A DNA stretch of 64,000 nt from Yuukianura sp. NJ FZ-2021 (lineage: Eukaryota). Shown here one piece after another: positions 36,632 through 64,000 of the stretch. Location: assembly GCA_046563655.1 (NCBI GenBank), contig CM102287.1, forward strand, positions 7,254,001 through 7,318,000. The letters run 5' to 3'. The position numbers were made by a program, and so were the translations under genes. The notes under the pieces are model-generated. The model was not told the DNA's origin and searched no databases. It was given only the letters and a program-made list of their open reading frames with translations. Position 1 is the stretch's first letter. Every line of letters starts with the position of its first letter.

Positions 36632-39600
36632 TCAAGTTTGTGCTGCTGATGGACGCGGTAGAATCGTCGATACTTTAGGCATTGCTGATGGACGCGGCAT
36701 AGTCGTCGATACTTTAGTCATTGCTGATGGACGTGGCATGAACGTCGATACTTTAGCCATTTCTGATGGACGTGGCATGGACGTCGATACTTTGCTGATT
36801 GCTGATGGACGTGGCAGAGTTGTAGATACTTTACTTGACATCGGACGTCGAATCTTCTCTTCTTGAAGTCGCTTCCAGCAGCAGCGTACGATCTGTGTAT
36901 CGGGTGCTAAGCGAAATGGTTTTGACCCGTCAGACTCCGTGTACCGGTTAATTTGGTATTCAATTAAGGTTTCATAGCCCAACACGTCGGAACACAATTC
37001 CTGCAAATCACGGGAATTGGTTAAAACTTCAGAAATTCATCTTAGGTAAGCTAATTTTCTTACGATTGACAATGCATTTGTATTTGTAGTCATGATGCCA
37101 ATGAACTTTTTGTCTTTCCCAATCCGGATCAATTCTTCCTCGACGTAGGTCATCAGCGGCACATTGTCAGCTTCCGTCACCAGTTCGTGTGTGCCCATCA
37201 TGAAGCTGTGGATGATCTTCTTCCTTCCCTTGGGCAACTTTAACCTAGTGTTGAACATTAGGTTAATATACCGTAACTTGACTTAAATTTAGATTACATA
37301 AGGTCATTACTTCGATGGAGCTTCAACAAAATCCAGAAAGTCCAGGACAGTTTGGATACCGGGAGCTGCCGGAACTCCTTTCGGTTCATCGTAGAGATCA
37401 AAGTTCAGCGCAACCGCAACTGCCTTCTTGTCTTCTCTCCGGCGGACAATAAAGCTGAAAGTAAAAACATTCTTTAAATACTTGTATTATTTAATTTTAT
37501 AGCTGTATAATTTTTATAATTATATGTTTTGTAGTTGATCTGAAGCTAAAATGGTTACCTCAACCCCTTCTTCTGGAGTGTCGGATACAAAGCACGCATG
37601 AGTTCCTTGAAGTCCTGATGTGACGCATTCGTGTACACTTCCAAGTCACCTTTTCGTGAGAAACTGTCGGCAATTATTCTGAAAAACAAAAAGTTATAAT
37701 AATCCAGTTTTCAATTTTTTCAAAATTATTTTTTCAAAATTTTTAGAAAATGGACAGCTAGTGGAGCTCTTTGACGGAAAGACTTACGCAGTTGCTTCAA
37801 TTTCGTGCATACTGGCGAGGAATTCGGAGTAGTACTTGTGATGATGCTTGAGTGCACCAGTGTTGATCGTCGCTCCAGGCTTGTTGTGCACAGTCGACAC
37901 AATTCTGGGAAGCATGTCTTTGAGGCTTTTGGCAGAAACGAACTCGTCCAAGCCTAAAAGCGTCCAATCAGGATTGAAGAAATTAAAAATCTGAAATTTC
38001 CGAACTCAGGCGCTGATTCTCAAAATTTTATGCCAGGAGGAGGAAGTTTAAAATTCAAAGTTACCAATATGAAACTTCTTCAGACGAAGTCTTGTGACGA
38101 CTGCGACGGAATTGAGCGACGTTCCACCGAGGTTGAAGAAAGATTCATCAAAGTTGTCAATGATGTCGGATGGATGAAGGTGAGTGACGTCGGAAATTGC
38201 TTGCACAAGTACTTTTGCTTGTTCCTCCAACTCTGGTGGCAAGTGGAGTTTACTCCAAGGATCCACACAGATTTCTGTTCGAAATCAAATTTTGAAAAAT
38301 TATACTTTTGATTTTTTGAATTTCCGATTTTCCAATAATTTTGAACAGATGATTTCGGATGCTTACGGTCAGCGTCAACCACTTTGCGTCGCTCGGTTTC
38401 AAAATGAGCCAAAAGTTTTTGGCGATCGATCTTTCCATTGAGGAGCAGCGGAACTTCTGAGATCAATTTGACCTCTGGAATTTCAAATGTTTTAAGAGTA
38501 TTCTTCAGCATTGACGCAATTTCAGCTTCGGTGACCTCAGGCTTTGCAGGAATTATGAATGCAACAATAACCTAGATTTTGAAGTTTTAGCTTTTTATAA
38601 AATTTTGAAATCTTTCTTTTTGATTTCCAGGTCCAAGTGCTCACTTGATCTTCTTTGTCAGGATTGAAGCAAAGAACAACTGCTTTGCTAATCAAATTCG
38701 CTTGACTGTTGAGAATCCCTTCAATTTCGGTAAGGTCAACACGATGACCTCTGACCTTGACTTGTGTATCGTTTCGACCTTCAAAAAACAAGGCTCTACG
38801 TCCATATTTGGTTCCGATCCGAACGAAGTCTCCGGTTTTGTACAAGCGATTGAAACCTGGAATCCAAACGAATCAGTCAAATTTCAGTTTTTTGAAGAAA
38901 AAAAATTCAATCATTAGCCTCATTTTTTTCGGATTTTGAAACAAGTTTCAGAAAAGCCGAAGTTTACCGAGCGTATTCGTAAATGGATTGTCCAGAAACT
39001 TGTCCGAGGTTTGCAAGCCGACATATCCAGAAGACAAATTGTATCCAGCGACATACAATTCTCCAGTTTGGCCTTCCGGAGTCACCTCCATGTTGTCATT
39101 TAGAACGTATAGAACAGTGTTAAATATTGGACCACCTGAAATGTCAAAGGTCAGGATCAAATTTTGAAAAGCAAGGTACAAATTACTAAAAATCCAAAAC
39201 TTAAATGATTTTTTTTCTTATCCAACCAATTGCAACGTTGGATTTATCCACTTTCTTGTTCAGATCTTCAGCGGATGTGAACACTTCGTATGCCACATCA
39301 CCCATATCTTCCGTGCTTCCATAAAAATTGCACAGCGTTGCATTTGGAAATTCTCTGAAAAAATCTTCCGCCAGCTCCCGATGAAGCGTTTCACTACTGC
39401 AGATCCAAAATTTGATGCTGTCCAGCTTCTCTCGCCCTTTCCCAGCTTCATCGTCATCAAGCAAGCGCAGAGCACCCAGAAGAGCTTGAAGCAGCGATGG
39501 AACCACAAGGATTCTTGTAATCTGCGCAGCATGGATGCTTCTAATGAAGAAATTTGGATTAGTCACAACGTGTCTTGAAAAGATGTGGATCCCAATTCCA

Positions 39601-40558
39601 CGCAAAAGCGGTCCAAAAATTTCAGGAATTGAGTCAACAAAGGTGAAAGCCGTTTTGGCACAGCATTTGTCCGTTTCTTCATAAGGAAACGTCGCCCACT
39701 GCCAGTACAATCGGTTCATGATGGTACTGAAATTTCAAAACCAAAACTAAAATTTTCAACTTTTTTTTTCAAGAATCGTATTGGTTGCTGGAAATCGGAA
39801 TCGCTGGAAACGACAAAAAGCGTCACATTAAATCTTACCTGTGTTTCAAACGAACTCCTTTGGGCGCTCCGCTGCTTCCACTTGTATAAAAAATGACAGC
39901 AACTCGGTCAGCCAGCGATTTGACCTTGGACGGAAACGGAAGTACCCGTGTTGCTTCAATTTCCTTCGACCTGTTCACAAGGTCATCGTATGTCGCCACC
40001 TCTGTTAGGTCCGTCACCGCTCCAAACTTTGACACCGTGGATGACAAGGCATCTGAGATGACCATGATCGGTCTACAACTTGTGACCATACTAACGACTC
40101 TGTTTTCTGGATATGTGTGGTCAATCGGAACATAGGCTGCGCCTAACTTATGAATTGCAAACATGGAGAAGATCAAGGCTTCGGATGGCGGGAGACATAA
40201 GGCAATGACCCAGTCACCATTTGGATTGTAGTTTCTAAGGTCCTTTTCCTTAGCAAAGGCTTTGATTGCTAAAGCCAACTTGGTTGATATCTTGTCCAAG
40301 TCCCAGAAGGTCGTTGACCTCTCGTCGTCAATGAGCGCCACTTTTGATTGGACGGAGAACTCTGTGACGTAGGTCCGGAAGTACTCCATGGTAGATGCAT
40401 TTCCTGGGTAAGACTCCAGTTTTCCTTGCATGATGCAACTCAATTTGCCTGATATGTTAATTAACCCAATTAATTCAAATTCAATGTAAAAGGTCAAAGG
40501 TCAACTCGTTTTTACATTGTCCACGACATCCGTCCGGCATCCTTGGAAGAAGCGACAT
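36632..40558 (-). CDS. ebony: Ebony-like single-module NRPS, copy 1 (adenylation, thiolation, aaNAT-like C-terminal domain)
   Basis: [49 protein letters not shown], carrier motif [24 protein letters not shown]. Confidence 0.92.
36640..36838 (-). repeat. 39-bp (13-aa) coding tandem repeat xKVSTxMPRPSAx, 5 copies, in the ebony copy 1 tail
   Basis: ttgctgatggacg...gtcgatacttt repeated five times. Confidence 0.9.
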
Positions 40559-42238: not shown

Positions 42239-45200
42239 TTAATTTGAGGTGGGAAAGGGTGGGGCAGTTTGTGTTTCCAGTTTTTTCCAACAGCAATTGA
42301 CTACTTGTGAGTCGGGAGCCAGTTTAAACGGCTTAGATCCATCCGGAGCTTCGTATTGGTTCACTTGGCACTCCACTAAAGTCTCATATCCAAGAAGTTC
42401 TGAACAGATTTGCTTGAAAAAAGACAAAATCATCGTAAAACTGAAAATTTTGATTTCAAAATGTTGTTATTTTCAAAATTCAAACTGGACAATGCTATAC
42501 CATGGTCAGTGGATTTGTGTTCGAGGTCATGACTCCCAGGAATCCTTTGGTTTTGCCAATCCTTGTGTTTTCCTGTTCCATGAAAGTGACAAGGGGAACG
42601 TTCTCTGCCACAGGAACGCTTTCATGCGTTCCCATCATAAACGAATGCAGAATTTTGTTCCTTCCTTTCGGCAATTTATCACTAAATTATGAAAAAATTG
42701 TAAGAATTGGAGTTTTTAAGGAAAATTGTGCTAAGGTTCAGTAAATCTGGTTACCGTTGTCGACTTTCAAAAGAGTCCAAGAAGGTCAGAACAGTGTGGA
42801 TCCCTGGAGGAGCAACAACGTCTTCCGGTTCATCGTAAAGGTCAAAGTTCAAGGCCGTGGCGACTGCTTTGTTGTCTGATTTCCGACGAACGATGAAGCT
42901 AAACATTTCGGGCATTTTTTAGTTATTGTTAACTTAACTTGAAATGGTTCTGACACAAGTGACCTTTGACCTCACCTGAGTCCTTTTTCCAACAAAATTG
43001 GAAACAGCGTTGTAATAAATCCCTTAAAATCTTGAAAAGTTGCGTTTGTATATACTTCCAAGTCACCTTTTCTCGAGAAACTGTAGCCAATGATCCTAAA
43101 ATTCAGAACAATTCAACAATTTTTTTAAACCAAAAATTTTGTACCCATAAGCTCCCGAATGCAGGAATGCAGGATGTATTCTTTAAAAAGCTAATAGGAA
43201 TTCAGCATATTTATGAATTTTTTTAAATTCTTACGAGCTTGCTTCCTCAACGTCACTTTCCTTTAGAAACTCGGCATAATACGGTTTCAAAGTTTCCGAA
43301 TCTTGCCGAACCTCGTTTACGGAATTACGGGAAGACGAAGAACGAATTTTCGAAACCATTTCTCGCAGCGATCCTGCAGTGACAAACTCGTCGAGCCCTA
43401 GAAACAAAAATTTCTAGTGTAGCTATTTGGACCTCTTTGTCTTTGTTGACTTTGTTGTAACTTTTCTCAACAGTCGCATCTGTTGCAACAGTTGAGTCAG
43501 TCTGAACTCGGGGACGAAATTTCGAGTAACTAATATACTAAACTGCTAGAGTTACCGATATGAAAATTCTTCGCTCGGAGTTTGGTTACAACTGTGACGG
43601 AATTGAGCGAAGTTCCGCCGAGATTGAAGAATGAATCGCCAAGTCCTTCGGCAACGTGCCGTTCCGGCACATACGTCACTTCGGAAATGGCTTTCACCAA
43701 AGCTCGTGCTCGTTCGGTAAGTTCCGGTGGAATGTCCGTGAAAGTCATCTCAGATCCAGCTTTAGAAGTAGTTTTTGGAAAATATGAAATTCAAATTTTT
43801 ATTTTGGTTAACAAAATTAGAAGCAAATTCAATTACCACTTTGATTTGTGTGACGTTCTGCTTCAAAGGTGGACAACAGTCGCTGACGATCTACTTTTCC
43901 GTTTACGAGTAACGGAACTTCGGAAATTACTTTCACTTCGGGAACTTCATAAGACCTCAACGTTGCTTTCGCTCTGGTCAAAACTTCTTCAGCAGTTACT
44001 TGCTTTGTAGCGGGAACAACAAATGCAACTAAGGCCTGCATTCAAACGGCCAAAGGTCAAGGTCAAGTTGTTGTCTTACTCCAGGCATTATAAGTCAGCT
44101 TACTTGATCTTCTTTTCCAGCATTGTAGCAAAGCACATACGCTCTGCTGATCAATTCCGATTGGCTGTTCAGAACAGCTTCAATTTCGTTTATGTCAACT
44201 TTTTGCCCCCGAACTTTGACCTGGGAGTCACTTCGGCCTTCGTAGAGAAGCGTCTGTCGTCCATTACTTGTGAAAACACGGACAAAGTCTCCAGTTTTGA
44301 AAAGAGTAGTGAATCCTAATAAAACATTTTCACAATTCAAATAAGCTTGAATTCAAAATTTTATTTGTAAAATCAAAAATTTTGACTAGCCAGTTTCGGT
44401 TGAGAACAAATTTGGAAGAAATTTGTCGCCATTTGCAATTGCGACGTACCCCGAACACAAATTTCTTCCAGCAACGTACAATTCTCCAATTTCTCCAAAC
44501 GGCACTGCCTTCAACTCTTCATCCAAAATGTACAAGATCGTATTGAAAATCGGGGATCCTAAAATCACAAAAGTTTGCAAAGTTGCAGTAAATTTGCAAA
44601 ATCTGCTGAAAACGCTTACCTATCGGAACACGGATCCCATCGACTTGCTTCTTCACATCTTCAGCACTACTGAACGTTTCAACTGTCACATCCGCCATGA
44701 TTTCCGTACTGCCGTAGAAGTTGGCCAAAGTTTTGTCTCCATTTGGAAACTGAATGAAGAAATCATCCAGAAGATCTTTCTGCAGTGTTTCGCCACTGCA
44801 CACCCACAGTCTAATGCTGTCCAACTTCCCGCTTCCTTGAACTTCATCTGACCTCAAGAGGTCAAGTGTGGACAGCAACGCTCTTAACAAGGATGGTACT
44901 AGAACGAGTCGAGTTATTCCAGCAGCATGGAGGTTTTTAATTAACAAGCTAGGATTAGACACAATTAGTTTCGAAAAAATTTGGATTGAGAAGCCACGCA
45001 GAAGCGGTCCGAAAATTTCGGCTACGGAGTCCACAAATGTCAAGGCCGTTTTGAAACAGCATTTTTCATCTTCAGCAAACGGAAAAGTTTCCCATTGCCA
45101 GGAAAGTCGGTTCATAATAGCACTGGAAAATACATAATGCTAAGGAAATTTTGGAATAAGATTAGGTAATTAGGTTGGTCAACCTAAAGTTAGTTTGCTG

Positions 45201-45813
45201 ACCTGTGCTTGAGACGGACACCTTTAGGAATTCCACTACTTCCGCTAGTATACAACACAATCGCGACTCTATCAGCTAAACACTTTGCTTCTGATGGAAG
45301 TGGCAGTACGTCTTTGATGGTTTCAAATTTTAGCGCTCGGGTCAAAAGGTCATCGAAAGTGACCACCTCCGTTTGGTCTCTAACGACATCAAATTTTGAA
45401 ACAGTCGATGGAACAGCATCAGAGATGACCAAAACTGGTTTGCAACTGGTGATCATACTGATGACACGATTTTCAGGAAAGGTGTTGTCTATTGGTACAT
45501 AGGCAGCACCTAACTTATGAATTGCAAAAATTGAAAAGATGACATTTTGAGATGGTGGAAGGCAGAGGGCAATGACCCAGTCGTTGTCAGGATTCTGATT
45601 TTTCAGATTCTTCTCTTGAATTAATTCGTAAATAGCCAAAGCAAGACGCGTCGAGGTCAAATCCAGAGTTTCAAAAGAAATTTTTGTTTGTTCAAAACCA
45701 ATGGCCACTTTGTTTTTAATTTCTGGGAATTTTAACAAATTTTGCTGAAAATAGTCTGTAGTTGAAACAGTTTCTGGAAATTCAGCATTCCGTCCTCGAA
45801 GAATGGATTCCAT
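42239..45813 (-). CDS. ebony: Ebony-like single-module NRPS, copy 2
   Basis: [67 protein letters not shown]. Most intron positions match copy 1. Confidence 0.93.
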
Positions 45814-50055: not shown

Positions 50056-53000
50056 TTATTTGTCTGAATTTGGATTGGCATCGCCTTGAGGTGGTTGAAG
50101 TGTGGCAGGCTTTAGGATTTTGTGGAAAGACGACATTGTGAGTGTCCCTGGTGCCAAATGAAATGGACGAACTCCGCTTTCCGCATACTCGTTCACTACA
50201 AAGTCGTCCAGTAACGTAAACTCATAAACGTCTAAAAGAAGATCCTAAAATCACAAAAAAAGCATCAATTAAAGCTGCGAAAAGCAACAGACTTATGCTA
50301 TCATAATTCTACACAGTAGTTAAGCTAAATGATTCGTTTCAGTACGACTTCAGTTAGAATTAAGCTTAGTTATGAGAAGTCTAACCCGAATAAGTTGATT
50401 TGACGATGCCAGGAAGAAACTTTTGAATCCATCTGACTGAGCACGCGCAAGCATTTCGTTAATCAAAAGCACGATTACTCGGACGTTTTCTGCAGGACTT
50501 AGTAACACACTGGTAGCCATCATGAAGCACTCGTAAACCTCGTTAGCCGCTTCTTGAATTGCAAGTTTCTCCCTGTCCAAAAAAGTCAAAATTCATTAGG
50601 ACTCTCATTTTTTTTTAATTTGAGTAAGAATATTTAAATACAAAGTAATGAGAAAAGCAGAAATTTTTGGAGCTTACAAAACTTGTCCTTTCACTTCATG
50701 TCCAAATTCGACAACGTACTTGAGTGTTCCAAGTGCAGCATCGGTACCCAAATCGGTGAAAAAATCATAAGAAAGTGACGCTCCGACTACTTTAGAATCC
50801 TGATTCCGGATTACAGCGATACTCATTTGCTGTTCAAGAATTTTGTCCCAGTTGGCATTCAAATATGAAGTAAATTGTTCTTCAGAAACCATCGCAATTT
50901 TCTCGACATCGCCATGTCTTGCGTATGTCGTTGAGAGCAATCTAATAGAAAGTGGAATGATTTGGAGTTTATGATTATTTTTTAAAAGTTACAAAAAGTT
51001 GTTTGAACAAAATTGACAACTTACTGGACAACTTCACGTTGATGTTTGGCTTCCATGTACTTTGGAGAGTACAACTTCTTAGCTCTGGAATCCGCTACCA
51101 GCATTTGTAATGGCGATGCAGCAACAGCATCTGTTTTGACTTGGTTCGATTTCCGGAAATTTTGAAGCGTTCTCCGATTTTCCATTAGATTGATCAAATC
51201 CTCTAAATTTTCAGCTCCAATGAAATCTTGAATTGCTGCAAAGACAAAAAAAAGTTTGTTTTTCGTTTTTTTTAATCAAACATCCTCGGATTATGAAAAC
51301 GAAAACTTACAGATTGGATATCCCTTTTTGTTTAAATAAAGCACAACGCAAATGCTGTTGCATGAAGTTCCACCGAGAGCGTAAAAAGACAGATCCAAAG
51401 ATTTGATTGACAATTTGATCGGAATTGAACAAAATTTATATAAAGCTTCCAAAAGAATTTTTCCAGCTTCTGCGGCTTCTCGATTTTTCATTTTCAGCTT
51501 TCCCCAGTCGTCAAATCCTAAAAATCCAAAGTGATCCAATTCATCCAAACGATTCCAAGTGAAAAACTGAAATTCAAATCTACAAAATTTTCAAAATTTG
51601 AATCTTACCACTCTCACGTCCTTGTAGATAGTCGTTCAAAAGTCGATGTCTGTCTAGTCGTCCATTTGCAAGAACTGGAAATGCTTCCACCACTCGAATT
51701 GTCGGAATCATGAAGTTTGGAACCTTTTCTTGCAAATATTGGGACACTTCGGCGTTTGTGAGTTTGGAAATCCAATCTGGTTTTGGTAACACAAAAGCCA
51801 AGACGGCCTGAAAATTCAATAGTAATGAAAACAATGTCAAATTGAATTTGTACTCTAAATATCAGTGTTACCTGGTCAGCTTTTCCTGGATGAAAGATGA
51901 AAATGTTGACATGGTCCACCCCTTCGTGCGCCTTGAGTATGCTTTTGATATCCTCAATCACAAATTCATATCCTATAGAAACAAAAACTCAAAGTTCAAA
52001 CCCAAAATTTTTGTGAATTTTTGTTTTTCGAAAAACGTATAAGCAAGGCTACCGTTGTGCCGCAAGAAGGAGTCGCCCCGACCTTCCAGCAGAAGCCGAA
52101 ACTGTTTGTCTGCACAAACTACGTAACGACCATAGTCGCCCGTCAAAAATAAGCGGGAGTACTCTATATTCAAAAATATAACGACATAAAAATCGTAACA
52201 TATTTTCAACAATAAATCAATTTATAGCTTTTTAAGTACTTTGGGCACTGTCGTATGGATTGTTGATGAAACTGAAATCTTTGGTTTTCTTGTCCATGTA
52301 GCTCATAGCCAGTGGCATTCCAGCGACACAAATTTGTCCTTGCTCGAAATTGATGGCTAATTCTCGATTGACATTCATGATGTAAACTTTTGTGTTGTCC
52401 ATGACTTGACCTAAAGCAAGCCAAAAAAAAGTTATGAGTTTGGTGATATTTGACATGAAAAGATTATTCTTTTAGATTTTAAGTTTTACCGAGCACGATG
52501 TGACCAGCGACGTAACGTCGTTTAACTTCCTCAAAGCTTTTGAATCGCTCACAGACTACATCTCCGGATAGCTCCGTGTAGCCGTACATCGTCGCAAGCG
52601 TTTTTCCATCTGCCGGGAAAGCACTGAAAAACCGACGTGCCAACTCGTAGCTGACGACTTCTCCTTTGCATGCCACAAATTTCAAAACTTTCAAACGCAT
52701 CCTCGATTCATCTCGGCCAATCACCCGACATTCGTTGAGAAACTTTCCAAGTGCAACGCAGCTCAGACTGATTCGAAAGATTCTGTCTGCTTCCAACTTT
52801 TCAATCAAAGTGTGCATATTGTTCATGTCTTGAGTAGTGTAAACGTGGAGCGTCACTCCTCGCAGAAGCGGTGCAAATATTTGATGAACTGATTCCACAA
52901 AGGTCGCGGGAACATTGAGACAGCAGTTTCCTTTTTTCGTATAAGGAGCATACTTCCATGTCCAAGCGATCCGATTGATAATTGACTTGTGTGAAAGTCG

Positions 53001-53838
53001 TACTCCGCGTGGGACGCTGTGGAATCCGGTGGTTGCGATGATCACGGCTGGTCGTTCATTGGCTCTCGTTTCTGAAGGAAGATTTAAAACCTCCATGACT
53101 TTGTCCCTTGGATTGGCTGGAATGTCAACTTCGGGATTGCTTCCGGATTGCTGGATAGCCTTCCACATTTCTTCGATTGTAACAAAGTATGGGACGGCAG
53201 CGTCTCCATCGTTTTTCGGAACAGGTTTGGATGCTTCGTGAATCACAATCGTTGGACGAAAACTTTTCAGGATTTGAAGAATGACGCCGGAAGGATCTGA
53301 AAACAAAAACAGAATCGTATCGTGCTGCTAGGACAAGTTATACTAGATAGTCCGAGATACTTACAGTTTGGATCCAGTGGGAGGTAAGTGCCGCCAATTT
53401 TCAAAATGGCGAAGATGAGCACAATTAGCTTCTCAGAAGGCGGAAGACACAAGCAGATCAGAAGATCATCATCGGGGTTACGTATGACGATGGGATTTCC
53501 TAAACGTTCTATGAGCTGATTTGCAATGACTGTTGACAAAGTGTGAAACTGTCCAAAAGTCAATTTTTGAGTGTAAAAGCAAACAGCATCCTTGGAGGCT
53601 ACAATTTTCTTGCGTCGAAGCTCATTATGAAACAGAGTCGTGAGTGTTTCGTCCAGTCCTGGAATGTCCCGTTCCGGTCCAGATAAAATTCCAGGTTCTT
53701 GTTCTGTTGTTTCCAAAAAAACATTTAAATCAAATCAAAGAATCAAAGAAAAAATAAAAAGCAAATCATAAGTCCAATTCCAATACTCAAGCGTCTCAAC
53801 TCACCTTCCACACAGCATTCTGCACAACAGCAACTCAT
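50056..53838 (-). CDS. Highly diverged ebony-like NRPS, copy 3, with degenerate catalytic motifs
   Basis: Same architecture (NPDDDLLICLCLPPSE, GGTYLPLDP, LFLTGD, FYALGGTSCNS, CFMMAT, AENV). Exons appear open and spliceable. Confidence 0.85.
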
Positions 53839-54716: not shown

Positions 54717-55341
54717 ATGTTCGGGTGTTGTGGTGACTACTTGTCATTTCCGCCCTTCCGTTACTCCGCAGTGGGGCGAATGACAGACATTGGCTGTTGT
54801 CCATGCAAACAGGATCCACCATTTGGAAATTTCTGTTCCAGCTCTCAGCTATTCCCACGGTATCAAATCATCCAATATCCTAAATCCAAAAAGTTCCAAA
54901 TTCGATAGTCTAATTCCAAAAAAATGAAATAAAATTCGGTTTTGTAATCCTTTTGGAATTAATTTCAGTCCAAAATGCTACTGTGAAGATTGGTGCACAC
55001 CGTGCGTCAGCTACCAAAGTTCCAACAACTACTACTACCTTCCATCGCCTCTGACAGGACCCCGGGGCAAGAAGTATGTCATGACCTTTTGACCTCACAG
55101 CGCTAATCACTTAAGTAGACGAATTTTCGAAAAAGTCAAAAATTGTAGTTTGGATTTTTGAATTTGAAGGTTGTACTCAATGTGTGAACCAATGATTCCT
55201 GGATATTCTGGACACATTCCAGCCTACAAGTACCACAGCGCTGGACGGACCTTTGGAGATGCAACGAGAGACATTGGAGTGGTCATTCGTCAAAGATGCT
55301 GTCGTTGTCTGCCCCTCCCGAACCGGATTTGGGAACAGTAG
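54717..55341 (+). CDS. Small Cys-rich protein with FAM166/CIMIP2-type motif; exons 54717-54859, 54969-55073, 55170-55341
   Basis: In-frame GT-AG splicing yields ~139 aa including MIPGYSGHIPAYKYHSAGRTFGDAT, which matches the PGYxGHIP...GxTFG pattern. Confidence 0.68.
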
Positions 55342-55997
55342 AATTCTTTCCAAAATGCTCGCAATGGAAATTCAAGTTTTACAAGACGTCAAAATTTCCA
55401 AATTTTCCAAACTCATTTTGAAGCTACTACATCAAATCATAATGACTTGACCTTTGACTTATCATAAATCACACAAAAATGAAAAGTAAAGTCAGAGATC
55501 AAAAGTAAGATCAGTTGCACTTTTCCAAACTTTCCTTCCTAGCGATTCCAAATCCGAATTTGTTCCAGTTTCTGTGCAATTTTGTAAGCAAATCACACAA
55601 TAATTGAAATAAAAAAGTGTTGTCCTTAGGAAAATTTCCTTGAAATGAAGAAGATTCAGGTGAAGCTTAGCTTTGAATTGTTTGGTTCCACTCACCTGCA
55701 CCTTGTTCCCTTAGGCAAATCTGAAGAATCTGAAGAGGTGCTGCTCATCGTTGTAGCTCAGAAGATACAGAGACTTAAGCCCAAGAGGTCAATTCCTCCT
55801 TCTTCCCTGCTACCAGTACCGTTAGAATTCATTTTAGTACTAGTATTGTCATTTCCACTTGTTTCGTAGTGCCTGCAAATTCAAAAGAGCAAAATTAGGT
55901 CAAAGTTCACTACAATGAAACCGGAAAGTTCGAGACGCTAGCTCTAGCTTTAAAACAATTCAAAAATAACTTAAGTGAACTCACTGTAGTTTTGGTG

Positions 55998-58900
55998 ATG
56001 GGTAAACGCAGGGGACTTCTATTCGAAACCTCCGCGGTGTTTGTTCTAAAACTATTTGTGTTAGTTGTACAAATTCTGATTCAAGCTCCACCAGCGTCAG
56101 GAACGCCGAATCATCCTCCAGTGTTTCTAGCCGGCGGCGATCTCTCCAGGTTTTCAGTCCGGGAAGACACTGCAGTTGGATCTGTAATTTACAGGTAAAA
56201 CAAAATCAACGCTAGTTTTCAAAAAACATAACCTAGCTTATGAAATTAGTCTAACATGATCTGCGTACTAAAACACAACTCAATCATCTTCGACCGTCAA
56301 GATTCTACATTGTCAATTAATTGCTTGAGTTAAAAAAGCCAAAAACATAAATTAATTAGTCAAGTAATTAAACTAAACGAAATTTAGGTTGAAGGGAAGC
56401 GACCCAGAAAATGGCGAACTCACTTTCAGCATCAGCGGTGAATATTTCCGTGTGAATCGGAAAACAGGAGACATTTCTCTCATCAAAGGTAATGAAATTG
56501 AAATTTAGCGTCTTGTGATTAGTTGTTGTTGCAAAATGCTAAAAACTTGCATTGTTTTTGTTGTTCAGCTCTTGACCGTGAGAATGAGGCTTCCATTGAT
56601 GTCATCATCAGTCTCACAGGTAACTAGAAGCATTCAAATGAAATAAGATTGTCTCTAAATTAATTATTTGATTAATTGAAATTAGACCTGTACCACACAT
56701 GTAAAGAATGGCTTTGATTTTCGTTGCAGATGACGGGAACGGTGGTGAACCGGAAACGGTTTCACTGCGCCGTGAAATCTTGGTATCCGATGTCAACGAC
56801 AATCCGCCAGTATTTGAAAATACTCCGTACAATTTCAAAGTTAGCGAAAAGACTCCCGTGGGCACAACCATTTTCTCTGCTATTGGAATCACTGATGAGG
56901 ACTTTGGTCAAAATGCTGAAATTGAGTTGACCTGTGACACGAAGAGGTCACAACTGGCTTGTGAGTTCTTTGGAGTCACAGCGGAGGCAATTGGTGAAGG
57001 AAATTATATTGGAATTGTAACACTCATAAGGCCATTGGACTATGAGAAACATTCATCTTATTCGCTCGGTCTGGTGGCAACTGATGGACAGAATAGTGTC
57101 AATGCCCTTGTGGCTGTCAATGTACTTGACGTCCAAGGTATTTTCTGAAATTACCAAATTAAAATTAAAATTGCCATACAAATTAAATGTTTTGCGAATA
57201 ATTGGCATTTTTTAGATCAATCACCTCGGTTCATTGGCGGTCCATATGTGTTCAAAGTCAAAGAAAATTCCATCGCTGGAACAAAAGTGGGAGAAATTCA
57301 AGTCCAAGATGGAGACACTGGAAATCCAAGAGACATGCAAATTAAGTTAATCGATGAAGCACAAAATGATTACTTCAGATTGAGCAACATTCGACGTGAT
57401 CCATTTGACGGTACAATTTCAGCTACGGTGGAGATTTCTGAAGAGACGTTGGACGCCGAAGAAGAATTTGTTCGAGAAAACTTAGGTAATTTCTAAATTG
57501 CTAAAATTAGTTCAATTTTCGTGGAGACATCAATGAGTTTTTCGTCTATTTTCTTCCAAATTCGTCATTCTTGACTCTTTCTAGGTGTTTACGAGCTAAC
57601 TTTGGAAGCTCGTGAATTTCCGCTGAACGCTGACGATACTGAACCCACGTTGGTGACTCGCGTCGGTGTAGCCGTCATGGTTGAAGACGTAGACGACAAT
57701 TTGCCAACATTTGAACCAGCCCAGTATCCACAAATTTTGAAAATTCCGTATCGTCCAGACGAATCCTACACATTTCCGAATTTTAAGCTTCAAGTAGAAG
57801 ATGTAGACGAAGATCCTGCTCATGCGCAGTTCCATCTTCAGTTAGACTGGACACTTCCCACTCCAGTGGACTCAGTATTTGCATTTCTGACTCCATCCAA
57901 CGCAAATCCAGTCATCCGATCCAAGAGTATTGTGACCCTAGAAGTATTGAATATTTCACTTTTAGAGCCCGGGTCAAAGTTCAACCTTGAAATTGGAGCT
58001 TACCAGAGAGATCACCTAGTATCCAAAATCAACATTCCGATGGAAGTAGAAGAAAGTGTTAGAATTTTGCCACAATTTAACTCAACTATTTTCCGAGTGT
58101 CAGTTCCAGAAGACGTGTCCAAGGGAGAAGTGATTACAACAATTTCGTTGAAGAATGGTCACCTCCTTTCCAGTGTCAACTATTCTCTAGTTGGCGTAAA
58201 TTCGGAAAAGTTTGAACTCAATTCGGATACTGGAGAGATCCGTTGCGGAATTGAAAAGTGCCTGGATTACGAAAGAGAGCGTAGTCACTTCTTTTTAGTT
58301 CGAGCAAAATCGGGAGAAAAAGTTGACGAGGAAACGTACGCTTTGTTTTACTTGGACACTCAGCCAAGGAACGACGAAAGTCCAGTGTTTGAAGAAAAAT
58401 CAGCCATTCGACGATCTGTTCCAGACGGAACAGTGACCTTTGACCCTCCATTTGTTGTTGGCGCTGTTGATTCGGATGTAAATGACCAATTGGAGTATGC
58501 AGTCACGGATCACTCCATGAATTCTTCTGGAATTTATATTCAGCCGGCCACTGGGGAGTTGAAATTGAAGAAGCGTCTCAGGTTCTACAAAAATCAAAAT
58601 TTTCAACAAAAAAATTTTTTTGTTTTTTGAAATTTTTGTGAACGTATTTTGAAATTTCAGTTGGGCTGAAGGAGGAGAGCACAAACTAACCGTAACTGCT
58701 ACAGATAAGTCCGGGAACACTGCATTCCAGTCTGTTCTGCTCATCGTTCAGCCAGTTCTGAACATTCCACCGCGGTTTCCTTCGGATGAACAACAAATCG
58801 AAATTCCTGAAACTACAGAGCAAAAATCAGTCATTTACCGGGTATCTGCGCATGATCCAGACGGACAAGACATTGCTTTGCGCTACTACATCCACTCACA

Positions 58901-61900
58901 ACCAGAAGAAGATCTGTTTACAATCGATGAGCAAACTGGAACAATTCAGTTAGGCGCTTCTGCAAAACTTGACTACGAAACGAAACAGAGGTTATATCCA
59001 CTCATCATCCGCGTTCAAGACGAAGGAAAACCGTCGGAACTGGCCAAAATGACAATCGACGTCAAAGTTAAAGATGTGAATGATGAATTTCCAAAATTTT
59101 CAACTTCAAATTACGTTGTGGAGATGAGCGAATCTTCCAAGGCGAATTACGAAATCCTCCAACTTGAAGCTTCAGACGCTGATGAAACTGCGAAACTGGA
59201 ATACACCATTTCCTGTCCTTGCAGAGCTTGGGATGCTTCTGGGTCACTAGCTACTCCTAAAGATGCACAAAAATATTTCAGTCATTTGAGGTATGCTGCA
59301 TAACATTAAGCAATTTCACGCAAAACTTCTCGAGTATTTCAAGTATTAGTTTAGTTTCTTAACCTGTCTTTTATGGTATCCAGCGTGGATCCGAAGCTTG
59401 GCAAAATTTTGCTGCTGTCACCGCTGGAGCACAAACTGACTTCAGCACTTGAATTTCAAGCCCACGTTGAAGATCGAGATGGCGAGAAACCCCAAAATGA
59501 CACTTGTAAAGAAAAAGTTCCAAGAAATCTGTAAATATCAATCATATTTTTTAACAGAATTCCTAAAAACCAATTTTTTTTGAATAGCCATTGTAACAAT
59601 TTACGTCACAGCAGCAGAAAGGCTGTTTCCGTACTTTGGCGAACCTTGGACTCCAACTAATCCTTGGATCAATCTGACCGTTCCGGAGGACATGGCCATT
59701 GGAAGTAACGTGGCAACGCTGAATGCTTGGGATTATGTAGCAGATGAAGAAATCATGACCTTTGCCCTTGTGGACGAAGACTCTGCTGAACCGTTCGGAT
59801 TAGAAGAAAACATCGTCCGGGTCACCCGCCTCCTGGATTATGAAACAAAAAAGAATTATGTAATTTCAGTGAAGGCCATTGATGCACGAGGAGGGGAATC
59901 TGTGGCCAACCTCGCAATTGTGCTCACGGATACCAATGACCATGACCCAGTTTTTTCAAAGCCAGTAAGTTTAACGCTAAACTAACCTACTAATTTAAAG
60001 CGTATATCCTTAAAGTAAATGTTCAACATTAACTTACGTTTTGCTAAACATGTTCTCTTGAAAAGGAATACAAGGGAAAAGTCGTTGAGAACTCCGTTTT
60101 CCCCACACCGCTTGTCACTGTTGAAGCCAGCGATCGTGACGACCCTGAAAACTACGGTGCAATTCGATACTCCTTGGTTGGCCCAAACAGTCATCTTTTT
60201 AGCATTGACGAATTGGCAGGAGTAGTTCAAGTCGCACCAGGAGCAGATATCGACAGAGAAACCGATTCTTCACATACAATCTTCGTGTTGGCCATGGACA
60301 CGCCTCTGGGTGGACCATTTCAACGGACAGCAATGGCAACTCTGAAAATCCAAGTCACAGGTATCAAACTACAGAAATTCAACTGTAATAAAACTTTAAA
60401 CAAGACACTGTAAAATCCAAAGTGTAATTTGTAATTGACCTTTAACCTTGCAGATGTAAACGATAACGACCCAGTTTGTCGCCAGAAAGATGAATTCCTG
60501 GTGGACGAAGATGCTCCACAAGGAACGCTGATTGGAAACATCACTTGCGTCGATCCAGATGAAGCGCCAGTGTTAGTCTACAGTCTCCGGGATGAATCCA
60601 AACTTGGTCTGTTTGGCATAAATGCCAAAACGGGAACTATCAGCGTCGCAAAATCGTTACGTGGACGAGGCAGAGCAGCACCTTATACCGTGGTTGCAGT
60701 CATAGAAGACGGAAATGACCGAAGTGTGACGACTCCCGTTGAGATCAAAGTGGCCAATACGATTCCAAATGACGGAAGGCCTTACTTTACAAACAAAGGA
60801 TTCCGGGGAGAAGTCTCAGAAGGAGCGTTTCCAGGGACGCCGGTTTTGCATATTCAAGCTTCAGATACTGACTCGTTGGACAACGGAGAAGGACGACTGG
60901 TGTATCGCTTGATGAAGCAAATCTATCCTTGTCATGAAAAACGCGAATCCAAGAGCGAAGAGGTCACACGAGTCGAGGATGTCAATTACTTCCGGTTGGA
61001 TGAGAATACTGGAATGCTGTCGTTGCAGAGTGTAGTTGATCGTGAGAAACACGACTGCCTGTCACTGATGGTCGGAGTTGATGACATGGGCGTCCCACCT
61101 AGAACAAATTCAGAATGGTTCACCATCTCTGTCCTCGGTAATCAAACAAATTAAACCAAATTCTAAAATTTTTGAAAAAAAGTTCAAAAAGAATTGTTTT
61201 TTAGATATCGATGACTCCTTGCCCACTCTTCCCAAGAACTTACGTAATGTTCACTTGGTGATCAACGAAACCGTGGAGAAAGACTCCGAAATATTCAAGT
61301 TTCGTGCCACGGATCACGACATCTACCCCAATAATAGAGTTGGCTTTGAGCTTATCGTCGGTACTGGAAGTGGCGTTGAGTACTTCAATCTTGTCCAAAT
61401 CGATAACCAAACTGCCAACTTGATGGTGACCGGTGACCTTCAAAAGCTAGAGTCTGATGAAGTGACAATGGCCATCAAATGTTTTCCGAGAGACAGAAAA
61501 GTGCCTCTTCCAGACTGCAGTTCCAAAGTTCACATCCGACTTCAAAGGGACTCTCTCACAAGTGATCGCTGGAACTTGAATAAGAAGAGCCTCGAGATGA
61601 TACTTGGCGTAGGCACGGGAGTCCCTGTGGGGAACTTGATTGGAAATGCTGACATGATGCCCATGGTTCCTATCCAAATGTCAGAACAAATGTATCATCC
61701 AAACGTCATTTCTCAATCACCGTACAATGTTACCGAGGTGGTCCGAATTGACGCAACGACTGGCGACATCTACGTCTGGGACAACTTGGAACCGTTTCAA
61801 AACGGACATCTTCGTGTAGAGCTTGACAATCCTTCTGAAAATTCTTCATCTAATGTTCCACTTATGAAGAAGAAGATGAAGATTTTCATTGCTCCGAACG

Positions 61901-62531
61901 CTGAGCTTTTGTCAACTGAAACTTCCGAGTTCCTCCGATTGGGTCGCTGGGCAGACGAAATCCAAACGTTTCTGAATCAACCTAAATCAAATTCACAAAT
62001 TAACAATGGCGTTTTTCGCCTTTTAACGTTTGACCAAAGTAATGCTCCAGAAGGAAGGACAATGTAAGAACTTTCCTTACCTCCTTTTCAAACTCCAGGT
62101 TTCAAAATTTCAAAATTTTCTGGAATTTCAGGGTTTGTTTCCAACTTTTGGAGAATGAGAACATGATGAGTCAGGAGAAATCGCTTCAAATCCTCAGCGC
62201 CCCCGACATCCAAGATATCTTTCTAAAACATTCATTTGCTGAGCAAATTCAAAAGGTCAGACCCAAATAATTCAAAAATTCAATACATTTTAGCAGTTTT
62301 TAGACGTACCTTCAAAATTTTGAAAACGTCGTTATGAAATTGTCATTTTCTTGAAAACAGGGATGTCCGCAGCGACCTCAAGGTCCAGCGAAGTTGACGC
62401 TGGCAGGATCCCCAGGGAGGTTCTGGGTAGAAACTTCGCTGGTCGGAATCGCTTCCGTAGTGGCAATCGCTACGCTCTCGTTCATTACCATTCTGTGCCT
62501 TGTGAACAGAAACAAAGTAGAAAAACTGTGA
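55998..62531 (+). CDS. Cad74A: Non-classical cadherin, Cad74A/CDH23-like, multi-exon
   Basis: Signal peptide; first repeat NHPPVF..GDLSRFSVREDTAVGS..DPE..FSISG..LDRE..VIISLTD..ETVSLRREILVSDVNDNPPVF; many DxNDN and LDYE motifs; TM segment LVGIASVVAIATLSFITILCLV. Confidence 0.85.
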
Positions 62532-63529
62532 CCTGTTTCCAAAACCTAAAATATAACAACAACAGTAATCGATTAATCAATTAAAATATTTTATGAAATA
62601 TGCATATATAGATAAAAAAAACCAAATAAGTACCGATTTTATATTTATTCAGAATAAATCCTCCTATATTTACATTTACATAATAAAGTAAATTCATCTG
62701 ATAAATTGAAATCCTGTCATAAGATTCACTACATTAATAAACTCAAGGTTAACGTTTAGGCAAAAAATGCATAACAAAATGAAGGAAGGAACAAAAAGAA
62801 ACAAGGCTTGGAGCCGAATGTTAGGACGTTAAGGGCCTAAAATTTTCCAGGAACATTGGAAAAACGGGAGAAAAAAAAGTCAAGTTTTAACATTTTCAAT
62901 ACATTTAGTACATTTAAAACAAAGGTCAAGTTGGCTAAACACTTTAAGTCTAAATATAGGGACAATTTTCTGCAAAATTTAAAATTCTAGAAATAGTTTA
63001 GTCAAATTTAATTGAGTTTACGGCGATAGAAATATTTCCGCCACGATAGCTCCCACGCTTTTTCTTCGTCTTTTCATGGCGAAACGATTTCCCTTTAGTA
63101 AACTTCAAATCCTGGTTAGCTTTTTCACCCCAACATCCTCTCGCACCTTTCTAAAAAGTACAGAAAACAGAGATTATACATCAATCGATTAATTATAAAC
63201 TTAATTAAATCTAAACAACCCAGTTGATGACAAAACCAGGAAGCTATGAATAACTCTTGGTAATGGACAACAAATGACCGGTAAAATTGAAATTGTCTCT
63301 GGAATCTTGAAACATTGCACAATTTTTACACAACGTTTTTTCAAGATTCAAGACTTTGGTATCGGCCTTAAGGGAAAGATATGTTGGTAATCGACAGTAC
63401 CAACATATGGCAAAAAGGCCCCAGAGTAATTAGTATTAAAATTAACAATGATTAGTATAACCACTTCGGTTTCGGACTTACATGAATGTCTAAAAAAGTA
63501 AAGTGCGGATTTCGATTGCCCCGGAAAAC

Positions 63530-63967: not shown

Positions 63968-64000
63968 CTTTAGAACACAAAACGAAGACTTTGAAGATTT

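What the first reader, a model, noticed from the sequence alone, without database searches (positions are those of the whole stretch)
50056..53838. Third ebony paralog looks like a preserved pseudo-enzyme
Seen: apparently intact exons, yet the P-loop YTSGSSGxPKG is ATTGFHSVPRG, FVDS is FVES, NFYGSTE is TMYGYTE, the A8 hinge is GRGDSFLRHNG, and the catalytic Lys of NGKxDR is Arg (NGRLDR). In the C-terminal domain the conserved Glu (FLxxxE) is Lys and TNT is ASS. The carrier-domain Ser (LGGTS) is retained. Known: these motifs are needed for adenylation and amine capture. Inference: a non-catalytic ligand binder, regulator, or carrier loaded in trans by copies 1 and 2.
Basis: partly seen in the sequence, partly recalled or inferred. 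Interest (0 to 1): 0.7.

Follow-up and report, generated by a model that had tools for sequence, protein, structure and literature searches.

The report
Conserved ebony paralog with degenerate catalytic motifs
A third, intact copy of the pigment and neurotransmitter enzyme gene ebony in a springtail-like genome has lost the residues normally needed to activate its substrate yet is kept by selection, so it probably does a new, non-standard job.

Summary
Window 50056-53838 (minus strand) holds an intact 12-exon gene of 939 aa. It lies in tandem with two canonical ebony-like genes.

All the motif readings hold:
- A3 is ATTGFHSVPRG, A4 is FVES, A5 is TMYGYTE, A8 is GRGDSFLRHNG and A10 is NGRLDR.
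- The carrier GGTS serine is kept.
- In the C-terminal domain Glu is Lys and TNT is ASS. An invariant His (HSFMMG) is also Glu.

"Preserved" is supported.
- A syntenic, intact ortholog on metagenome contig L001 is 73.6% identical in protein, with saturated synonymous sites (pS 0.78, pN 0.16).
- Two more distant partial orthologs share the changes.
- The lineage groups with springtail ebony-like genes behind a long stem branch. It shares 7 intron positions with copies 1 and 2.

"Pseudo-enzyme" is plausible but unproven.
- The phosphate loop is degenerate and varies between orthologs, and both catalytic Lys are replaced.
- The ribose and adenine contacts, the carrier domain and a re-shaped pocket (Glu, Lys) are conserved.

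No RNA data could be obtained. This is a new variant of a known family, of moderate interest.

The parts
50056..53838 (-). Copy 3: divergent ebony-like gene, 12 exons, 939 aa. Exons: 53805-53838, 53365-53703, 52490-53296, 52240-52410, 52053-52163, 51872-51972, 51609-51807, 51311-51517, 51025-51235, 50678-50941, 50386-50572, 50056-50244.
   Evidence: the joined CDS is 2820 nt with no stop, and all introns are GT..AG. Pfam AMP-binding scores 67.3 bits on exon 3 (cut-off 29.9); tblastn.
53812..53838 (-). N-terminal Cys cluster MSCCCAECC, encoded by mini-exon 1. It reads MSWCCAECC in the ortholog. It may be an S-acylation or metal-binding site (inference).
   Evidence: blastn gives 83% nt identity between L001 2408-2460 and window 53852-53800.
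53004..53036 (-). Degenerate A3 phosphate loop ATTGFHSVPRG (aa 212-222).
   Evidence: The five replaced positions vary among the 4 lineage members.
52890..52901 (-). A4 FVES (aa 257-260). The acid residue at pocket position 236 (PheA numbering) is Glu instead of the ebony Asp.
   Evidence: Glu in 4 of 4; alignment to bacterial A domains fixes the register.
52659..52670 (-). CKGE (aa 334-337). A new invariant Lys335 sits at pocket position 301, where canonical ebony has Ser (22 of 22).
   Evidence: Lys in 4 of 4 lineage members.
52572..52592 (-). A5 TMYGYTE (aa 360-366). Tyr and Glu are kept. The Asn, Phe, Ser and Thr positions are changed or variable in the lineage.
52135..52143 (-). A7 TGD (aa 458-460), retained.
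   Evidence: Asp is kept in copy 3 and in L001.
51971..52083 (-). A8 GRGDSFLRHNG (aa 478-488), spanning the intron 51973-52052. Gly, Arg, Asp and the last Gly are kept. The motif differs between the two orthologs at one residue (S/T).
51649..51666 (-). A10 NGRLDR (aa 569-574). The catalytic Lys is Arg.
   Evidence: Arg in 2 of 2 orthologs. Lys in 592 of 594 aligned microbial A domains.
51363..51377 (-). Carrier-domain LGGTS (aa 635-639). The phosphopantetheine-attachment Ser639 is kept.
   Evidence: 8 of 10 canonical carrier-domain invariants are kept. Pfam PP-binding does not detect this exon.
50386..50941 (-). Core of the C-terminal Ebony-type (arylalkylamine N-acetyltransferase-like) domain, exons 10-11. 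Lys811 replaces Glu, Glu829 replaces His, LLINE replaces FMExE, and LASS replaces TTNT.
   Evidence: the only relevant PDB match is Ebony 6dym (E 0.25 and 0.026); 10 of 31 canonical invariants are kept.
36632..40558 (-). Copy 1: canonical ebony-like gene, 12 exons, 975 aa ([28 protein letters not shown]).
   Evidence: keeps 147 of 165 near-invariant columns. PP-binding 28.3 bits.
42239..45813 (-). Copy 2: canonical ebony-like gene, 11 exons, 892 aa, with one GC-AG intron.
   Evidence: keeps 154 of 163. PP-binding 25.4 bits.

Best explanation
Copy 3 is an old, selectively maintained offshoot of the springtail ebony-like gene cluster. It keeps the Ebony layout: adenylation domain, carrier domain, and a C-terminal arylalkylamine-N-acetyltransferase-like domain. 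It can probably no longer make an acyl-adenylate by itself.

Shown:
- The gene is intact in two species and under purifying selection in every domain.
- The ATP phosphate loop is degenerate and drifts between orthologs.
- Both catalytic lysines (A3 and A10) are replaced.
- The substrate pocket has gained a lineage-invariant Glu and Lys.
- The carrier serine and most carrier-domain invariants are kept.
- Two thirds of the invariants of the amine-selecting domain are replaced, mostly by residues that are conserved within the lineage.

Inferred:
- The adenylation domain now serves as a ligand-binding or docking module.
- The carrier arm is still phosphopantetheinylated and receives its acyl group in trans. 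The most obvious donors are the two canonical neighbours.
- The remodelled C-terminal domain passes that group to a different acceptor.
- The conserved N-terminal Cys cluster may tether the protein to a membrane.

My odds: maintained by selection 0.95; adenylation lost or cut by orders of magnitude 0.7; carrier still used and loaded in trans about 0.3.
For: Intact and conserved:
- The window gene has 12 exons and no defect.
- Ortholog L001 has 10 exons, 944 aa, no defect, and is identical at 688 of 935 aligned residues.
- Upstream neighbours are shared.
- pS is 0.78 (saturated) against pN 0.16. pN/pS is 0.10-0.40 in every segment examined.

Phosphate chemistry relaxed:
- The five replaced A3 positions read AHIQ, TRTV, FLIY, SQKR and RVRR in the 4 lineage members.
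- In 661 microbial A domains these positions are near-invariant. The A3 Lys is K in 602 of 605 aligned domains.
- The A10 Lys is Arg in 2 of 2 orthologs, against K in 592 of 594 aligned domains.

New constraint:
- 9 of 56 canonical invariants in the A3-A5 block are replaced by one new residue in 4 of 4 members. These include Asp259 to Glu and Ser335 to Lys.
- 45 of 72 changed columns carry the same new residue in both full orthologs.

Carrier kept:
- 8 of 10 carrier-domain invariants are kept, and GGTS is present in 2 of 2 orthologs.
- pN/pS in this domain is 0.116.

Fold kept:
- The AF2 model of the L001 exon has pLDDT 85 and pTM 0.88.
- Its top PDB matches are NRPS A domains, with E down to 2.7e-23.

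Origin by duplication within springtails:
- In the tree, springtail sequences separate from the insect and crustacean ebony plus the microbial outgroup with support 99.8/97. The lineage stem is 1.14 substitutions per site.
- 7 intron positions and phases are shared with copies 1 and 2.
- Two canonical copies lie 4-14 kb away on the same strand.
Against: - No activity, binding or expression data exist. No RNA run was listed.
- Several ATP and adenylate contacts are kept: A3 Thr213, Gly215, Pro220, Gly222; A5 Tyr362 and Glu366; A7 TGD; A8 GRxD and Gly488; A10 NG.DR.
- The A6-A8 block is the most conserved part of the protein, at 85% identity. A mere scaffold would not obviously need that.
- Both Lys changes in the window copy are to Arg, a conservative change that might keep some activity.
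- Pfam PP-binding does not detect the carrier exon of copy 3 or of L001 even at E up to 10. It does detect those of copies 1 and 2.
- Trans-loading rests only on gene neighbourhood, and it is unknown whether L001's species has canonical copies nearby.
- The roles assigned to the motifs come from recalled general knowledge of ANL enzymes. The Ebony structure paper was not readable here.
Confidence: 0.45

Rival explanations
1. Copy 3 is still an autonomous adenylating enzyme that has switched substrates. A re-shaped pocket (Glu259, His/Asn262, Lys335, Asp370) selects a different acid, possibly one with an extra carboxylate that pairs with Lys335. Arg stands in for the two lysines. The remodelled C-terminal domain couples the product to a new amine.
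For: - The pocket residues are replaced by lineage-invariant new residues rather than drifting.
- A5 Tyr and Glu, A7 TGD and A8 GRxD are retained, and A6-A8 is the most conserved block.
- The carrier Ser is kept.
- All three domains are under purifying selection. That is what a working three-step enzyme would need.
Against: - The phosphate loop is not merely altered. It differs among the 4 orthologs at all five replaced positions, and the Lys position is Val in L001.
- Each of the copy 3 states at A3 position 5, Gly7 and Lys, and at the A10 Lys, occurs in at most 1 of about 600 aligned A domains.
- A5 Gly and Thr are also lost in the distant orthologs, which read YAHAE and YGFAE.
Confidence: 0.27
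2. Copy 3 is a purely non-catalytic partner, a scaffold, regulator or ligand sensor. It performs no acyl chemistry. The carrier serine is kept only for structural or docking reasons.
For: - Both catalytic domains have lost canonical invariants. The A domain keeps 66 of 115 and the C-terminal domain 10 of 31.
- The invariant His of HSFMMG is Glu and TTNT is LASS.
- The carrier exon falls below Pfam detection.
- The conserved N-terminal Cys cluster suggests a new localisation.
Against: - The carrier domain is the best-kept domain, with 8 of 10 invariants including GGxS. Its pN/pS of 0.116 is among the lowest.
- The new residues in the C-terminal domain are themselves conserved: 13 of 21 changed columns are identical in both orthologs. 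That fits a binding site still in use.
Confidence: 0.23
3. Copy 3 is a decaying duplicate, an unprocessed pseudogene that merely looks intact.
For: - The stem branch is long (1.14 substitutions per site) and identity to copies 1 and 2 is only 28-29%.
- No expression data could be obtained.
Against: - There are no stops or frameshifts across 939 and 944 codons in two species whose synonymous sites are saturated. pS is 0.78 and pN 0.16.
- All splice sites are canonical.
- All indels between the orthologs are in frame and lie in linkers.
- Synteny is kept.
Confidence: 0.03

Closest known systems
Ebony of Drosophila and other arthropods (beta-alanyl-bioamine nonribosomal peptide synthetase; C-terminal domain structure 6dym)
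   Same: - The three-part layout is the same and the proteins align collinearly over the full length.
- Pfam finds AMP-binding.
- The only relevant PDB sequence match of exons 10 and 11 is Ebony 6dym.
- Copy 3 shares intron positions with the canonical neighbours and falls within the arthropod ebony tree.
   Different: - Identity to canonical ebony is 26-30%.
- 72 of 156 family near-invariants are changed. These include the A3 loop, both catalytic Lys, the Asp that in ebony sits at pocket position 236, and the His, Glu and TNT motifs of the amine-selecting domain.
- An extra N-terminal Cys-rich mini-exon is present.
Copies 1 and 2 of this window, and the Orchesella ebony-like paralogs (P0155, P0157-P0160)
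   Same: - Copies 1 and 2 sit in the same cluster on the same strand.
- All belong to the springtail side of the tree.
- Springtails carry several ebony-like genes, with at least 3 distinct ones on a single Orchesella dallaii contig.
   Different: - All 5 Orchesella proteins and both window neighbours keep YTSGSSGxPKG and the A10 NGK.
- None belongs to the copy 3 lineage.
- Copies 1 and 2 keep 147 of 165 and 154 of 163 invariants, against 89 of 156 for copy 3.
NRPS carrier domains loaded in trans, and NRPS modules with inactive adenylation domains (for example yersiniabactin HMWP1 served by the HMWP2 A domain; recalled, not from a call)
   Same: An A-like or A-less module whose carrier domain depends on another protein's adenylation domain. 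This is the mechanism proposed here.
   Different: Those are bacterial multimodular assembly lines with classical condensation domains. Nothing of the kind is documented for the animal Ebony family, and nothing here shows that trans-loading occurs.
ACSF4-U26/AASDH, the other animal beta-alanine-activating NRPS-like protein (mentioned in PMC10531068, passages read)
   Same: An animal single-module A-T protein with a non-condensation C-terminal part.
   Different: It has a different C-terminal domain. Copy 3 aligns with Ebony throughout and matches 6dym. I did not compare it directly with AASDH.

Membership tests
Ebony family (A - carrier - Ebony-type C-terminal domain) | Three-domain collinear architecture with the Ebony-specific C-terminal domain | tested here: met
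   Full-length alignment with 22 canonical members. Pfam AMP-binding on exons 2 and 3. 6dym is the only relevant PDB match of exon 11 (E 0.026) and a weak match of exon 10 (E 0.25).
Ebony family | Common descent with arthropod ebony | tested here: met
   IQ-TREE on 33 sequences and 561 columns: the lineage groups with springtail ebony-like genes. The split from insect and crustacean ebony plus the microbial outgroup has support 99.8/97. 7 intron positions and phases are identical with copies 1 and 2.
Ebony family | A3 phosphate loop (Y)TSGS(S/T)GxPKG | tested here: not met
   ATTGFHSVPRG in the window, HTRGLHQVPVG in L001, ITTGISKDPRG in P0005 and QTVGYARDPRG in P0006. 22 of 22 canonical members keep it.
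Ebony family | A10 catalytic Lys (NGKxDR) | tested here: not met
   Arg571 in the window and Arg in L001. Lys in 22 of 22 canonical members and in 592 of 594 aligned microbial A domains.
Ebony family | Val-Asp at pocket positions 235/236 (FVDS), taken to bind the beta-amino group (the role is recalled) | tested here: not met
   FVES in 4 of 4 lineage members. The register is fixed by alignment to bacterial A domains.
Ebony family | Carrier-domain Ser in GGxS | tested here: met
   LGGTS in the window and in L001. 8 of 10 carrier invariants are kept. Pfam PP-binding gives no match on this exon, while copies 1 and 2 score 28.3 and 25.4 bits.
Ebony family | Invariant residues of the amine-selecting domain (FLxxxE Glu, HSFMMG His, FMExE, TTNT) | tested here: not met
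   Lys811, Glu829, LLINE and LASS. 10 of 31 canonical near-invariants are kept. I could not read up their catalytic roles because the paper is not held.
Ebony family | Beta-alanyl-amine synthase activity | not testable with these tools
   Needs an enzyme assay.
ANL / AMP-binding superfamily (PF00501) fold | Profile match above the curated cut-off, and an A-core fold | tested here: met
   67.3 bits on window exon 3 and 112.5 bits on the L001 exon, against a cut-off of 29.9. AF2 pLDDT 85 and pTM 0.88. Foldseek top hits are NRPS A domains, E 2.7e-23, TM 0.73.
Pseudoenzyme (conserved homolog lacking catalytic residues) | Key catalytic residues replaced while the protein is under purifying selection | tested here: met
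Pseudoenzyme | Demonstrated lack of the ancestral activity | not testable with these tools
   Needs ATP-PPi exchange and loading assays.
Unprocessed pseudogene | Stops, frameshifts, broken splice sites, or dN/dS near 1 | tested here: not met
   None in 939 or 944 codons. pN/pS is 0.21 with saturated pS.

The most novel reading that the evidence does not exclude
Copy 3 is the acceptor half of a split, trans-acting animal NRPS system. The canonical neighbours (copies 1 and 2) adenylate beta-alanine or a related acid and load it onto the carrier arm of copy 3. Copy 3's dead A domain has become the docking surface. Its remodelled acetyltransferase-like domain couples the acyl group to a new acceptor at a membrane, and the protein is held there by its palmitoylated N-terminal Cys cluster. 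This would be the first trans-loaded, pseudo-adenylation NRPS module described in an animal.
Probability: 0.15. Interest if true: 0.75.

Novelty: new variant of a known kind. Interest (0 to 1): 0.5.

Why it matters
Ebony is one of very few NRPS-type enzymes of animals. It controls cuticle pigmentation and hardening, and recycles histamine and dopamine.

This lineage keeps the fold, the carrier serine and a conserved but different pocket. It has shed the phosphate loop, both catalytic lysines and most invariants of the amine-selecting domain. It is therefore a natural experiment in how a three-step enzyme is re-purposed.

If the protein is loaded in trans, or acts as a regulator of its canonical neighbours, that would add a new way of working to animal NRPS biology. 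It would also give springtail chemical ecology a new candidate pathway. If it is still active, it defines an adenylation domain that works without the canonical P-loop, which would interest enzymologists.

The two full-length sequences, two partial ones and the substitution map given here make both options directly testable.

Tried and rejected
- **RNA evidence.** The look-up of sequencing runs gave an error once. On retry no RNA holder was listed, so expression and splice junctions could not be checked.
- **Whole genome.** None is held for this window, so I could not look for further paralogs.
- **Full-length annotated orthologs.**
  - A word-index search with exon 3 against longer proteins returned only 3 multidomain microbial NRPS at 27-28% identity.
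  - The exhaustive phmmer search gave 12914 hits at E up to 0.001. Among the best 150, only P0005, P0006 and P0042 are lineage members.
  - P0042 turned out to be a fragment of L001, with the same sequence and the same 6298-base contig. It is not an independent ortholog.
  - A search with the A10 exon alignment of window and L001 found no candidate. The A10 and carrier states are therefore known for only 2 species.
- **dN/dS proper.** It could not be computed because synonymous sites are saturated: pS is 0.78, so the Jukes-Cantor correction is undefined. I report pN/pS as an upper bound.
- **Ebony structure paper (Izore et al. 2019).** It is not held under its PMC id, DOI or PubMed id. Another paper searched for residue roles held none of the terms. 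The catalytic roles of the C-terminal His, Glu and TNT residues therefore remain unverified here.
- **Earlier scan notes.** Searches by sequence and by words found nothing.
- **Horizontal origin.** I considered it because springtails hold transferred NRPS genes (PMC10531068) and rejected it. The shared introns and the tree position argue for duplication of the resident ebony gene.
Full report
**What is there**

Reading the minus strand from 53838 to 50056 gives a 12-exon gene.
- Exons are 53805-53838, 53365-53703, 52490-53296, 52240-52410, 52053-52163, 51872-51972, 51609-51807, 51311-51517, 51025-51235, 50678-50941, 50386-50572 and 50056-50244.
- The 2820-nt CDS has no stop or frameshift. All 11 introns are GT..AG and 64-141 nt long. 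The product is 939 aa.

Two further ebony-like genes lie downstream on the same strand.
- Copy 1 is at 36632-40558, with 12 exons and 975 aa.
- Copy 2 is at 42239-45813, with 11 exons and 892 aa, one intron being GC-AG.
- Both carry canonical motifs: YTSGSSG(A/I)PKG, FVDS, NFYGSTE, GRxDxQVKVRG, NGK(I/V)DR and FFNLGGTSL.

These gene models are mine. No RNA evidence could be obtained.

Pfam gives the following on single exons:
- AMP-binding on exon 3, 67.3 bits against a cut-off of 29.9.
- AMP-binding on exon 2, 30.1 bits.
- AMP-binding_C on exon 7, 19.7 bits, below its cut-off of 24.5.
- Nothing relevant on the other exons.

The only relevant PDB sequence match of exons 10 and 11 is the C-terminal domain of Drosophila Ebony, 6dym (E 0.25; E 0.026). 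A review describes that domain as an arylalkylamine N-acetyltransferase domain recognisable only by structure (PMC10510592, one passage read).

**The observation**

I aligned copy 3 with copies 1 and 2 and with 20 arthropod ebony proteins. I picked those 20 by hand for taxonomic spread from the 120 listed: 5 Orchesella, 5 crustaceans and 10 insects.

Of 156 columns that are near-invariant in the 22 canonical sequences (at most one deviant):
- Copy 3 keeps 89.
- Its ortholog keeps 87.
- Both together keep 84.

Five canonical sequences tested the same way keep between 147 of 165 and 155 of 162.

By domain, the number kept in both lineage members is:
- Adenylation domain: 66 of 115.
- Carrier domain: 8 of 10.
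- C-terminal domain: 10 of 31.

As an outside yardstick I aligned 661 adenylation domains found in 148 microbial NRPS proteins.
- The A3 Lys is K in 602 of 605 aligned domains.
- A3 position 5 is S or T in 603 of 604.
- The A3 Gly7 is G in 601 of 605.
- The A10 Lys is K in 592 of 594.

Copy 3 and its ortholog have Arg/Val, Phe/Leu, Ser/Gln and Arg/Arg at those sites. They do keep A5 Tyr, Gly, Thr and Glu, the A7 Asp, the A8 Arg and Gly, and the A3 Thr and Gly.

- The invariant His of HSFMMG is Glu829.
- The invariant Ser of the WxCSGE strand is Lys335.
- A Cys-rich N-terminus, MSCCCAECC, is encoded by its own mini-exon.

**Is it preserved?**

An exhaustive phmmer search of 1.84 billion representatives with exon 3 gave 12914 hits at E up to 0.001. 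Among the best 150, only three share 40% identity or more: P0005 (41%), P0006 (45%) and P0042 (77%). All three are exon-sized fragments from unnamed ENA and JGI contigs.

A scan of metagenome contigs with their alignment returned one locus, L001, of 6298 bases. P0042 is a piece of it.

L001 holds the whole ortholog.
- It has 10 exons at 2422-6065, all junctions GT..AG, and encodes 944 aa without defect.
- It is identical to copy 3 at 688 of 935 aligned residues.
- It lacks two of the window gene's introns.

Its upstream DNA matches the window's CNBP-like gene (63001-63827) and a small gene at 54723-55346. Orthology is therefore positional as well.

Between the two orthologs pS is 0.78, which is saturated, and pN is 0.16.
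- pN/pS, an upper bound for omega, is 0.21 overall.
- It is 0.10 for A6-A8, 0.17 for the A subdomain, 0.12 for the carrier domain and 0.18 for the C-terminal domain.
- It is about 0.4 in the variable linker and in the A3 loop.

Simple decay is excluded.

**Where it came from**

I built an IQ-TREE tree (LG+F+R4, 33 sequences, 561 columns of the A-T region). The outgroups are six microbial A-T regions that I chose from the 148.
- The four lineage members form a clade with support 100/100.
- That clade sits on a stem of 1.14 substitutions per site. The internal branches joining the canonical ebony groups are 0.04-0.36.
- The clade falls on the springtail side of a split that separates the window copies and the Orchesella paralogs from insect and crustacean ebony plus the outgroup, with support 99.8/97.
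- Its exact sister within springtails is unresolved (33/63).
- Long-branch attraction would pull it toward the outgroup, which did not happen.

Seven of its 11 introns sit at the same alignment column and phase as introns of copies 1 and 2. Two more lie within 5-10 columns in poorly aligned linkers.

The lineage therefore arose by duplication of the resident, intron-bearing ebony gene. A burst of change followed, and then constraint.

The five Orchesella proteins examined all keep the A3 and A10 lysines, so that genus shows no annotated member of the lineage. The tree is consistent with it.

**What the pattern of change says**

The A3-A5 block is covered by all four lineage members. It holds 56 canonical near-invariant columns.
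- 24 are kept in 4 of 4 members.
- 9 are replaced by one new residue in 4 of 4.
- 23 vary within the lineage.

All five replaced phosphate-loop positions vary: AHIQ, TRTV, FLIY, SQKR and RVRR. So do five A5 positions. The A5 Gly is Ala in P0006, and the A5 Thr is Ala in P0005 and P0006.

In contrast, pocket residues were swapped for new invariants.
- The Asp that ebony carries at pocket position 236 (PheA numbering) is Glu. The register was checked against bacterial A domains.
- The Ser at position 301 is Lys.
- The preceding Trp is Val.

Gly330 and Asp331 stay.

In the full-length pair, 45 of the 72 changed columns carry the same new residue in both. The A7-A8 stretch LTGDYGRYV...LLLEGRGD(S/T)FLRHNGYEFVIEDIK and the NGRLDRH of A10 are almost identical in both.

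An AF2 model of the contiguous L001 exon (377 aa, covering A1-A5) has pLDDT 85 and pTM 0.88. It matches NRPS A-core structures with E down to 2.7e-23 and TM about 0.7. The fold is therefore intact.

My reading has three parts:
- Selection no longer protects the ATP phosphate and Mg chemistry.
- It does protect the fold, the ribose and adenine side of the site, the hinge region and a re-shaped pocket.
- A Glu-Lys pair across the pocket could either bind a new ligand or fill the site. This could not be measured, because model coordinates are not exposed.

The functional roles I assign to the A3, A4, A5, A7, A8 and A10 motifs and to the pocket positions come from recalled general knowledge of ANL and NRPS adenylation domains. 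They do not come from a call.

**Carrier and C-terminal domains**

The carrier domain keeps GGTS in both orthologs and 8 of 10 family invariants. It is among the slowest-evolving parts of the protein.

Against this, Pfam PP-binding finds nothing on the carrier exon of copy 3 or of L001, even at E up to 10. The same exon of copies 1 and 2 scores 28.3 and 25.4 bits. Each exon covers only about 42 of the 67 profile positions.

The C-terminal domain is the most remodelled. The changes against Drosophila 6dym are HSFMMG to ECFMMA, FMEHE to LLINE, and FTTNTS to FLASSN. It is nevertheless 74% identical between the orthologs. I could not read the Ebony structure paper, so I cannot say which of these residues touch the amine or the pantetheine arm.

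**Mechanism and odds**

Best explanation (0.45): a conserved protein that no longer adenylates by itself.
- Its A domain has become a binding or docking module.
- Its carrier arm is still used and is served in trans, most plausibly by the two canonical neighbours.
- Its C-terminal domain handles a different acceptor.
- Its N-terminal Cys cluster may tether it to a membrane.

Rivals:
- An autonomous enzyme with a new substrate (0.27). The conserved new pocket and the retained A5, A7 and A8 residues favour it. The drifting P-loop counts against it.
- A purely non-catalytic partner (0.23).
- A decaying pseudogene (0.03).

None of the functional steps is shown. Only conservation, descent and the residue pattern are.

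**Novelty**

Two full-text searches found only one paper that discusses both Ebony and springtails, PMC10531068.
- The first search used ebony, nonribosomal peptide synthetase and atypical condensation domain.
- The second used ebony, Collembola and nonribosomal.
- The passages I read from that paper treat Ebony as a single-module outgroup and do not mention paralogs with degenerate motifs. I did not see its supplements.

The scan's own notes held nothing similar.

I file this as a new variant of a known kind. It is a member of the Ebony family by architecture and descent, but it fails the family's catalytic-motif tests.

Noticed in passing
window 44389-44390 (minus strand, intron 3 of copy 2): Copy 2 has a GC-AG intron (donor GCTAGT) at the position where copy 1 has a GT-AG intron of the same phase. 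The flanking exons have the same lengths as in copy 1 (168 and 212 nt).
   Followed up: partly
window 36632-36860 (minus strand, end of copy 1): Copy 1 ends in a tail of about six repeats of a roughly 12-residue unit (KVST.MPRPSA-like). Copy 2, copy 3 and the other ebony proteins aligned lack it.
   Followed up: no
window 54723-55346 and L001 1539-2104: A small gene between copy 3 and the cadherin gene is conserved in L001. The L001 ORF matches Pfam CMI2B-like (ciliary microtubule inner protein 2B-like, 25.7 bits against a cut-off of 21.6).
   Followed up: partly
window 55899-62067 compared with L001 920-1540: In the window a large cadherin-repeat gene on the plus strand lies between the CIMIP2B-like gene and the CNBP-like zinc-knuckle gene (63001-64000). 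In L001 those two genes are only about 600 bases apart. The cadherin gene is either an insertion or rearrangement in one lineage or a loss in the other.
   Followed up: no
window 7732-12414 (plus strand): A 1560-aa open frame is made almost entirely of Thr/Ser/Pro/Glu-rich tandem repeats. One repeat family is about 20 aa and another about 16 aa. It is mucin-like. GC content rises to 0.53 there.
   Followed up: no
window 2228-3730 and 4703-5896 (plus strand): Two neighbouring long open frames begin with nearly the same sequence and stay similar throughout. They are tandem paralogs of an F-box/leucine-rich-repeat-like protein. That name is my impression and was not tested.
   Followed up: no
P0159 (Orchesella cincta ebony-like protein): This otherwise canonical springtail paralog deviates at some core motifs: FGDA for FVDS, KVRAQR for KVRGQR, and a disturbed stretch around A6. 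It may be a second case of relaxed motifs, or an annotation error.
   Followed up: no
P0155/P0085/P0156, P0158, P0160 (Orchesella dallaii): At least three distinct ebony-like genes lie on one 2.3-Mb contig, at 74% and 50% identity to each other. Multiplication of ebony therefore seems general in springtails, whereas insects in the hit list show one gene.
   Followed up: partly
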